Made by a program: the position numbers and the translations under genes. The notes under the pieces were generated by a model. It did no database searches and was not told the origin of the DNA. It saw only the letters and a program-made list of their open reading frames with translations. A stretch of DNA of 64,000 nt from assembly GCF_055900595.2 (NCBI RefSeq), contig NZ_CM148325.1; one strand, written 5' to 3'. Positions 57,985 to 58,630 of this stretch are shown here, one piece after another. Within the stretch, counting starts at the first letter, position 1; the number at the start of each line of letters is the position of its first letter.

Positions 57985-58188
57985 TCAAACCATCACCAGC
58001 GATAACTCTTTGCCAAGCGCCTTAGCCGCAAGCTGGACGGCGTCGATTTTTGTCGCATGGTGCAAGTTAAATAAGCGAGTAATTTCCTGTTTAGGTTTGC
58101 CAATTCGCCTGGCTAACTCTTGCTGAGTGATTTCTGACTGTAAAAAAGCATTTAACAGCAATACATTAGAGGCGACGCTCAAAGGCAC
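57985..58188 (-). pseudogene. hicB: hicB-like antitoxin 3-prime remnant (C-terminal HTH part only); hicA not present
   Basis: 67-codon frame (GTG)PLSVASNVLLLNAFLQSEITQQELARRIGKPKQEITRLFNL... is an XRE-like HTH. An in-frame TAA lies about 14 codons upstream. Only about 210 bp separate it from yncJ, too little for hicA plus the hicB N-terminal domain. Confidence 0.55.
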
Positions 58189-58399
58189 TTCAATAAAGTG
58201 ATCGTGACTATTTAATGGCGAAGTTTACCTCCGTGTGTAATGTGCTCGAAAATAGCACTAAATCGCCGCAACGGCAGAATGCAATGCAAAATCAGGAAGG
58301 AAGATTCCAGAATTTCTTTGCGCTAATTTGCAAAACTGAATAATAACCTCAAGAAACGATCGGCATCATAGCGGCAAAAGGTCAGAAAAAGGTGGCGGG

Positions 58400-58630
58400 A
58401 TGTTTTCGAAGGCTTTATCGGTTGTCTTATTAACGTGTGCACTGTTCTCAGGACAACTCATGGCAGGGCACAAAGGACATGAATTTATGTGGGTGAAGAA
58501 TGTGGATCATCAGCTGCGTCATGAAGCGGACAGCGATGAATTGCGTGCCGTGGCGGAAGAGTCGGCGGAAGGTTTGCGCGAGCATTTTTACTGGCAAAAA
58601 TCGCGCAAACCAGAAGCGGGACAACGTTGA
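58400..58630 (+). CDS. yncJ: small secreted protein
   Basis: 76-aa ORF with signal peptide (MFSKALSVVLLTCALFSGQLMA); synteny next to ydcP. Confidence 0.75.
   Translation: MFSKALSVVLLTCALFSGQLMAGHKGHEFMWVKNVDHQLRHEADSDELRAVAEESAEGLREHFYWQKSRKPEAGQR

What the first reader, a model, noticed from the sequence alone, without database searches (positions are those of the whole stretch)
57985..58400. hicAB toxin-antitoxin locus reduced to a hicB C-terminal HTH remnant
Only the XRE-like C-terminal third of a HicB-type antitoxin is present (GTG-initiated 67-codon frame, in-frame TAA just upstream). The roughly 210 bp to yncJ cannot accommodate hicA and the HicB N-terminal domain, so the toxin appears to be deleted. 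A retained HTH fragment could still act as a small DNA-binding protein.
Basis: partly seen in the sequence, partly recalled or inferred. Interest (0 to 1): 0.45.

Follow-up and report, generated by a model that had tools for sequence, protein, structure and literature searches.

The report
Known hicAB deletion scar, hicB pseudogene
This E. coli strain carries a 445-base deletion, shared by about a fifth of sequenced E. coli including the classic uropathogenic strains, that removed the HicA toxin gene and the front half of its HicB antitoxin; the leftover tail is an already annotated, slowly decaying pseudogene, so the finding is correct but ordinary.

Summary
Between ydcR and yncJ the window holds only the 3' part of hicB. 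HicB codons 61-138 lie at 57985-58221 on the minus strand, and the GTG-started 67-codon frame is 57985-58188. Alignment with full-length loci shows one clean 445-bp deletion with its junction at 58224|58223. It removed all of hicA, hicB codons 1-60, and the region just upstream of hicA. That lost region includes half of an 18-bp palindrome that may be the HicB operator. There is no hicA anywhere in the 64-kb window.

The same junction occurs in 1092 of 5426 complete E. coli genomes, including CFT073, UTI89, ST131 and ATCC 25922. RefSeq annotates the piece as a hicB pseudogene "missing N-terminus". The 67-aa ORF has been in GenBank since the CFT073 genome, as c1862. Loss of hicAB in phylogroup B2 is published.

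The idea that the HTH fragment still works as a protein is not supported:
- The GTG has no Shine-Dalgarno sequence.
- Every sampled remnant allele has amino-acid changes at positions that are invariant in full-length HicB.
- 28 genomes carry a nonsense codon, and one has a further deletion.
- An intact 67-codon frame is expected by chance at this level of divergence.

Verdict: real, already known, low interest.

The parts
57985..58221 (-). hicB remnant: codons 61-138 of the 138-aa HicB plus a TGA stop. It covers the linker, the complete Xre-type HTH DNA-binding domain and the C-terminal dimerisation strand. Its one difference from K-12 is K79N.
   Evidence: phmmer against PDB 6HPB_B residues 61-138, E=2e-44, 77/78 identical. 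tblastn gives 58221..57988. PGAP annotates the identical interval in the 100%-identical strain Z0117EC0005 as a hicB pseudogene 'missing N-terminus'.
57985..58188 (-). Mechanical 67-codon ORF starting at GTG, which is HicB Val72. It is equivalent to CFT073 'hypothetical protein c1862'. It is probably not translated.
   Evidence: ORF list. Pfam HTH_3. No SD upstream. The CFT073-type 67-aa sequence is in public databases under names such as Cro/CI family regulator and c1862, on 547 contigs.
58223..58224 (.). Junction of the 445-bp deletion. One C is ambiguous, so microhomology is 1 nt.
   Evidence: Pairwise alignment with NCTC86. The junction is identical in all 9 deletion alleles examined. The junction 54-mer is found in 1092 of 5426 genomes.
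58225..58227 (-). TAA in the hicB frame, contributed by the upstream sequence GGAGGTAAAC. It closes the remnant frame at the junction.
   Evidence: Sequence read; frame computed.
58224..58399 (-). Retained 176 bp of the native yncJ-hicA intergenic region. It ends in GTAAAC, the left arm of the K-12 palindrome GTAAACA-N4-TGTTTAC. It may still carry the upstream Sxy/CRP-dependent promoter P1, whose position could not be verified.
   Evidence: Alignment. The palindrome is present in K-12 and absent in the window. The P1/P2 scheme comes from reviews PMC11594946 and PMC8138530.
58400..58630 (+). yncJ (DUF2554), the divergent neighbour. It is intact.
   Evidence: Pfam DUF2554 E=2.2e-51; RefSeq annotation.
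56500..57906 (-). ydcR (GntR-HTH plus aminotransferase-like regulator), the downstream neighbour on the same strand. It is intact.
   Evidence: Pfam GntR and Aminotran_1_2; RefSeq annotation.
57940..57967 (-). The only sigma-70-like consensus match in the region. It lies between the remnant and ydcR and is probably the ydcR promoter, not one serving the remnant.
   Evidence: Promoter scan of the window and of the same position in K-12. This is a consensus match only.

Best explanation
This is the scar of one ancient 445-bp deletion in the chromosomal hicAB type II toxin-antitoxin locus of E. coli. The deletion removed four things: the autoregulated promoter region just upstream of hicA, the whole hicA toxin gene, the hicA-hicB spacer, and hicB codons 1-60, which encode the HicA-neutralising domain. 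With the toxin gone there is nothing left to neutralise or autoregulate. The remaining 237 bp of hicB (the HTH domain) is a non-functional pseudogene drifting neutrally. It persists only because nothing selects for its removal. It is still an open frame because too little time has passed for a 67-codon frame to be hit. Shown here: the deletion, its junction, its population frequency, the absence of hicA, and the decay in some lineages. Inferred: the lack of expression, and that the deleted palindrome is the HicB operator.
For: A clean 445-bp gap appears against full-length loci, with flanks 97-98% identical. The junction is identical in all 9 deletion alleles examined. The junction 54-mer occurs in 1092 of 5426 genomes, including CFT073, UTI89, ST131 and ATCC 25922, and the deleted segment is present in 4256 of 5426. 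Two other Escherichia lineages have full-length hicB between yncJ and ydcR, so the full locus is ancestral. PGAP marks the remnant as a pseudogene. Published work says phylogroup B2 lost hicAB (bioRxiv 10.1101/486399) and that hicBA expression in vivo is seen only in A/B1 isolates (PMC4128348). There are several signs of decay. S89* occurs in exactly 28 genomes. One genome has a second deletion running into ydcR. Replacements K79N, G101S, P103H, K127N/E and M137I occur in remnant alleles at positions invariant in all 5 full-length E. coli alleles and in 2 other Escherichia lineages. In the HTH domain there are 7 replacement and 8 silent polymorphisms in remnants, against 0 and 6 in full-length alleles (Fisher p=0.06). 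GTG72, TTG74 and TTG81 have no SD. The 18-bp palindrome upstream of hicA is halved. A neutral 67-codon frame stays open with probability 0.73-0.90 at 1-3% divergence, so its intactness says nothing.
Against: The frame is intact in the window and in most sampled alleles. pN/pS among remnant alleles is 0.30, not 1; recombination with full-length alleles and the small sample could explain this. The encoded piece is the entire HTH domain plus the dimerisation strand. The Manav et al. 2019 paper on the isolated domain was not readable here, but its title and the review PMC11594946 describe that domain as structurally stable and dimeric. The upstream 176 bp, which may contain promoter P1, is retained. 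The native hicB start also has only a weak SD (-3.0 kcal/mol), so a missing SD is not decisive.
Confidence: 0.87

Rival explanations
1. The 67-aa GTG frame (c1862 type) is expressed as a free-standing Xre-type HTH dimer. It would act as a small DNA-binding regulator in strains that lost the toxin.
For: The complete HTH_3 domain and the C-terminal dimerisation strand are encoded. Review PMC11594946 reports that E. coli HicB dimerises through this C-terminal part and binds DNA. The frame is open in most alleles. Several genome annotations call it a Cro/CI or DNA-binding regulator. The upstream intergenic DNA is retained. pN/pS is 0.30.
Against: There is no SD at any candidate start. The GTG is simply the Val72 codon, which is GTA in K-12 and GTG in a divergent full-length allele. 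The likely operator palindrome is destroyed. Replacements hit genus-invariant positions, including the HTH turn (G101S) and the start of the recognition helix (P103H, the common B2 allele). A nonsense allele in 28 genomes and a further deletion are tolerated. PGAP classes it as a pseudogene. The database names are automatic domain labels, not tests.
Confidence: 0.07
2. The remnant DNA is kept for a cis-acting reason. It would be part of the 5' regulatory region of ydcR, 78 bp downstream on the same strand, so that transcripts from the surviving hicA upstream promoter now read into ydcR.
For: The remnant and ydcR are on the same strand, and no terminator-like structure lies between them in either allele. 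The right-hand breakpoint leaves ydcR and its promoter-like site untouched.
Against: A sigma-70-like site lies in the hicB-ydcR spacer in both alleles, so ydcR does not need the remnant. No constraint on the remnant sequence beyond neutral expectation was detected. One genome has lost the remnant's 3' half together with the ydcR 5' end.
Confidence: 0.05
3. The short locus is the ancestral state, or an assembly artefact, rather than a deletion.
For: None found.
Against: The frame begins in the middle of a domain at codon 61 with no start. Full-length hicB occupies the same yncJ-ydcR slot in two other Escherichia lineages. The junction is base-identical in 1092 independently assembled complete genomes.
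Confidence: 0.01

Closest known systems
E. coli K-12 hicAB (yncN-ydcQ) type II toxin-antitoxin locus, structures 6HPB/6HPC/6U0I
   Same: It occupies the same chromosomal slot between yncJ and ydcR. The retained 78 codons are 77/78 identical to HicB residues 61-138, and the flanking DNA is 97-98% identical.
   Different: hicA, the hicA-proximal promoter/palindrome region and HicB residues 1-60 are missing, so no toxin, no toxin-binding domain and no native start codon remain.
RefSeq hicB pseudogene of phylogroup-B2 strains (e.g. CFT073 ABS744_RS12935, formerly ORF c1862; UTI89; ST131)
   Same: It has the identical deletion junction and the identical 237-bp extent. It is the same allele class as the window.
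   Different: The window allele (100% identical to dog isolate Z0117EC0005) differs from the common B2 allele by about 2-2.6% over the 493-bp interval. It keeps P103 and K127 but carries K79N.
Other inactivated hicA alleles in Escherichia, leaving an orphan hicB with a decayed toxin
   Same: The outcome is the same: the toxin is lost while antitoxin sequence persists. There is a 22-bp frameshifting deletion in hicA in roughly 886 E. coli genomes and a 1-bp deletion in Escherichia sp. E1V33.
   Different: In those alleles hicB is full-length and its protein is unchanged. Here the antitoxin itself is truncated.
Stand-alone Xre/Cro-type HTH_3 regulators
   Same: The remnant has a single HTH_3 domain of about 65 aa.
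   Different: It has no start codon or ribosome-binding site of its own, no intact operator and no sign of purifying selection.

Membership tests
HicAB type II toxin-antitoxin system (functional locus) | Adjacent hicA gene encoding the HicA mRNA interferase toxin | tested here: not met
   The 445-bp deletion covers all of hicA. tblastn with K-12 HicA finds nothing in the 64-kb window (best E=7).
HicAB type II toxin-antitoxin system (functional locus) | HicB N-terminal partial RNase-H-like domain that binds and neutralises HicA | tested here: not met
   Only HicB residues 61-138 align. Codons 1-60 lie inside the deletion.
HicAB type II toxin-antitoxin system (functional locus) | HicB C-terminal DNA-binding domain (HTH in E. 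coli) | tested here: met
   Pfam HTH_3 E=3.6e-8, 33.8 bits against a cutoff of 23. 77/78 identity to 6HPB_B residues 61-138.
HicAB type II toxin-antitoxin system (functional locus) | HicB-repressed promoter P2 with operator hicO upstream of hicA | tested here: inconclusive
   The 52 bp immediately upstream of the hicA GTG are deleted. This stretch includes the right arm of the perfect palindrome GTAAACA-N4-TGTTTAC and a TATACT box.
hicB-derived pseudogene (sequence descent from hicB) | Orthologous position and near-identity to hicB over the retained part, with loss of the start and N-terminus | tested here: met
   PGAP gives the same verdict in six independent genomes.
Free-standing Xre/Cro HTH_3 transcription factor | Own translation start with a ribosome-binding site | tested here: not met
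   Best anti-SD duplex upstream of GTG72 is +0.3 kcal/mol, TTG74 -0.5 and TTG81 -2.5, compared with hicA at -11.1. The GTG is a pre-existing Val codon.
Free-standing Xre/Cro HTH_3 transcription factor | Purifying selection on the protein since it became free-standing | tested here: inconclusive
   In the HTH domain of remnants there are 7 replacement or nonsense polymorphisms against 8 silent; full-length alleles show 0 against 6 (Fisher p=0.06). pN/pS is 0.30 against 0.10. The sample is only 9 and 5 alleles. The trend is toward relaxed constraint.
Free-standing Xre/Cro HTH_3 transcription factor | Transcription, translation and DNA binding in vivo | not testable with these tools
   No expression data are accessible. 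A literature search for c1862 found nothing relevant.

The most novel reading that the evidence does not exclude
In the roughly 20% of E. coli that carry this deletion, including the major extraintestinal pathogenic lineages, the surviving HicB HTH domain could be made from the internal GTG. Transcription might come from the retained Sxy/CRP-dependent upstream promoter. The product would act as a toxin-free small Xre-type regulator, an antitoxin domain put to new use after toxin loss.
Probability: 0.06. Interest if true: 0.4.

Novelty: already known. Interest (0 to 1): 0.1.

Why it matters
It matters little beyond correct annotation. The allele shows that the chromosomal hicAB module is dispensable and has been inactivated repeatedly in Escherichia: a 445-bp deletion here, a 22-bp deletion and a 1-bp deletion in hicA elsewhere. 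This fits the view that chromosomal toxin-antitoxin loci are accessory and decay toxin-first. The junction is a convenient lineage marker for B2-type genomes. Annotators should not call the 67-aa ORF a 'Cro/CI family regulator' without expression evidence.

Tried and rejected
- **Promoter coordinates.** The primary papers with P1/CRP-S and P2/hicO coordinates (Turnbull & Gerdes 2017; Manav et al. 2019) are not held. Promoter positions therefore rest on reviews only.
- **CRP scan.** A symmetric scan for CRP and CRP-S half-sites found no convincing site in the retained 176 bp, neither at 3 or fewer mismatches in the window nor in the looser scan of K-12. The weak candidates in K-12 were not pursued.
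- **Promoter and terminator scan.** It found nothing upstream of the remnant at the chance level, and only a site ahead of ydcR.
- **Rfam scan of 57700-58800.** It gave only sub-threshold hits: a REP-like naRNA4 match after yncJ and a meaningless snoRNA hit.
- **Literature searches.** Searches for c1862, and for ydcQ with uropathogenic, produced no expression or function data for the remnant.
- **Other ideas rejected.** The short locus as ancestral state or assembly error was considered and rejected. A 42-codon plus-strand ORF spanning the junction (58215-58343) was dismissed as mechanical, because it has no SD or homology evidence.
- **Selection test.** It was underpowered (14 alleles) and did not reach significance.

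Full report
**What is in the window**

The region is the E. coli ydcS-ydcR-hicB-yncJ-rlhA(ydcP) neighbourhood in reverse orientation.
- ydcR is at 56500-57906 (-), yncJ at 58400-58630 (+) and rlhA at 58726-60729 (-).
- Between ydcR and yncJ the only feature with homology is the 3' part of hicB.
It matches Pfam HTH_3 above the curated cutoff (E=3.6e-8).
- Homology to HicB extends 11 codons further upstream, to 58221. Window 58221..57988 aligns to K-12 HicB and to the crystallised chains 6HPB_B and 6U0I_A over residues 61-138, with 77 of 78 residues identical. The one difference is K79N.
- So 57% of HicB is left (49% from the GTG), not a third.
- An in-frame TAA sits at 58227-58225.

**What happened**

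- Alignment with the full-length locus of strain NCTC86, which has the same HicA and HicB proteins as K-12, shows flanks 97-98% identical interrupted by a single 445-bp gap.
- The junction lies between window positions 58224 and 58223. One C is ambiguous, so there is essentially no microhomology.
- The deletion removed 52 bp upstream of the hicA start, all of hicA, the hicA-hicB spacer and hicB codons 1-60.
- The TAA that closes the frame comes from the upstream sequence GGAGGTAAAC.
- tblastn with K-12 HicA finds nothing in the whole 64-kb window (best E=7).
- Two other Escherichia lineages, found through the species-representative genome collection, have full-length hicB in the same yncJ-ydcR slot. 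The long form is ancestral and the short form is derived.

**How common it is and whether it is known**

- A 54-mer centred on the junction cannot seed on undeleted alleles. It matches 1092 of 5426 complete E. coli genomes, and 1050 of those matches are exact.
- These genomes include CFT073, UTI89, clone D i14, ATCC 25922, APEC O1:K1:H7 and O25b:H4-ST131. From established knowledge, these are phylogroup B2 strains.
- The deleted 445 bp is present in 4256 of 5426 genomes.
- All nine deletion alleles I read have the same junction, so this was a single event.
- RefSeq/PGAP annotates the identical 237-bp interval as "hicB ... incomplete; missing N-terminus", flagged as a pseudogene. This holds in the strain 100% identical to the window and in CFT073, ST131 and others.
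- The CFT073-type 67-aa sequence is in GenBank as "hypothetical protein c1862" and under automatic names such as "Cro/CI family transcriptional regulator". It is recorded on 547 contigs.
- An in-vivo UPEC transcriptome study saw hicBA expression only in A/B1-type isolates (PMC4128348).
- The feature is therefore already known and already annotated.

**Is the remnant functional?**

The encoded piece is the whole HTH domain plus the C-terminal strand through which E. coli HicB dimerises (review PMC11594946). If it were made it could plausibly fold and bind DNA. The evidence points the other way.

1. *Translation signals.* No Shine-Dalgarno sequence precedes GTG72, TTG74 or TTG81. The best anti-SD duplexes are +0.3, -0.5 and -2.5 kcal/mol, against -11.1 for hicA. 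The caveat is that native hicB also has a weak SD (-3.0). The GTG is simply the Val72 codon. It is GTA in K-12, O157 and NCTC86, and GTG in a divergent full-length allele, EF5-18-41.
2. *Target.* In K-12 a perfect 18-bp palindrome, GTAAACA-N4-TGTTTAC, lies 33-50 nt upstream of hicA. Reviews place the HicB-repressed promoter P2 and operator hicO in that area. The breakpoint cuts this palindrome in half, and it is absent from the window.
3. *Decay.*
   - Every sampled remnant allele differs from the ancestral protein. The changes are K79N, G101S, P103H (the common B2 allele), K127N, K127E and M137I.
   - All are at positions invariant in five full-length E. coli alleles and in two other Escherichia lineages.
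   - A Ser89 TCA-to-TAA nonsense allele is present in exactly 28 genomes.
   - One genome has a further deletion that removes the remnant's 3' half and the 5' end of ydcR.
   - In the HTH domain the counts are 7 replacement and 8 silent polymorphisms in remnants, against 0 and 6 in full-length genes (Fisher p=0.06).
   - pN/pS is 0.30 against 0.10. This suggests relaxed constraint but is underpowered.
4. *Intactness is uninformative.* Only 5.2% of single-base changes in this frame create stops. A neutral frame would remain open with probability 0.73-0.90 at 1-3% divergence.

**Mechanism, most likely (confidence about 0.87)**

A single illegitimate-recombination deletion inactivated the hicAB module in an ancestor of the B2-type lineages. 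With the toxin gone, neither neutralisation nor autoregulation is needed. The leftover hicB tail is a neutral relic that is slowly decaying.

Rivals:
- An expressed free HTH regulator (about 0.07).
- A cis-regulatory role for ydcR, which lies 78 bp downstream with no terminator between (about 0.05).
- Ancestral state or assembly artefact (rejected).

**Comparison and membership**

- By descent the piece is hicB.
- As a system it fails two defining features of HicAB, the toxin gene and the toxin-binding domain, both tested and absent.
- It probably fails a third, the operator.
- It should be filed as a hicB pseudogene, not as a HicAB system or an Xre regulator.

**Novelty and interest**

The finding is already known and of low interest (0.1). 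The most novel reading not excluded is exaptation of the HTH domain as a small regulator in ExPEC lineages (probability about 0.06).

**Side observations**

- hicA has been inactivated independently by a 22-bp frameshifting deletion in roughly 886 E. coli genomes with an unchanged HicB.
- hicA is also inactivated by a 1-bp deletion in Escherichia sp. E1V33.
- The window's ydcS is split by a frameshift, as in its closest relative.
- A REP-like element follows yncJ.

Noticed in passing
L009 925-1079 (STEC1590); the allele class is seen: About 886 of 5426 E. coli genomes fall in the 90-95% identity band for the hicA/hicB-N segment. The two genomes listed from that band span 423 instead of 445 bp. 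The one read in full (STEC1590) has a 22-bp frameshifting deletion inside hicA, annotated by PGAP as 'mRNA interferase, frameshifted'. Its HicB protein is unchanged (WP_001270286.1). This is an independent toxin-first inactivation of the same locus.
   Followed up: partly
L016 1529-1744 (Escherichia sp. E1V33): hicA carries a 1-bp deletion that frameshifts after codon ~38, while the neighbouring hicB is full-length. This is a third independent hicA lesion.
   Followed up: partly
L015 about 3240-3260 ('E. coli' SCPM-O-B-8794, a divergent Escherichia): An 11-bp deletion removes the TTGATATACT stretch, a -10-like box just upstream of hicA, and the upstream palindrome has diverged. The strain's HicB and YdcR are clearly diverged from E. 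coli proper, so the species label is doubtful.
   Followed up: no
L007 713-715 and L008 (AST20, E700025); 28 genomes: In a sub-lineage of deletion-carrying genomes, the remnant has a Ser89 TCA-to-TAA nonsense codon plus K127E. This sub-lineage includes O166:H15 and chicken isolates. Its yncJ and upstream sequence differ from the typical B2 allele, so the deletion allele may not be confined to B2.
   Followed up: partly
L006 718-1254 (isolate 30859_5#12): A second deletion or rearrangement removes the 3' half of the hicB remnant and the 5' end of ydcR, leaving both as pseudogenes.
   Followed up: no
L010 1134-1151 (K-12/BW25113); window 58219-58229 holds only the left arm: A perfect 18-bp palindrome, GTAAACA-N4-TGTTTAC, lies 33-50 nt upstream of the hicA start. 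It is conserved in E. coli full-length alleles and in E1V33. It is a likely HicB operator, and the 445-bp deletion starts in its middle.
   Followed up: partly
window 55111-56255 (-): ydcS is split into two ORFs of 148 and 238 aa, spanning 1145 bp instead of 1146, which indicates a 1-bp frameshift. PGAP also marks ydcS as frameshifted in Z0117EC0005, the strain identical to the window at the hicB locus.
   Followed up: partly
window 58631-58674 (-): A REP-like palindromic element lies directly after the yncJ stop. It gives a sub-threshold Rfam naRNA4 hit (30.6 bits against a gathering score of 59.5).
   Followed up: no
literature, PMC11481867: Transposon data show rpoE, degS and rseP to be essential in BW25113 but not in two ST131 strains, which carry this hicAB deletion. 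The paper recalls the old ydcQ/hicB suppressor of sigma-E essentiality. No causal link is evident, because the suppressor acts through HicA, which ST131 lacks.
   Followed up: no
window 58215-58343 (+): A 42-codon ATG ORF on the opposite strand spans the deletion junction, so it exists only in the deletion allele. It has no SD or homology evidence and is probably a chance ORF.
   Followed up: no
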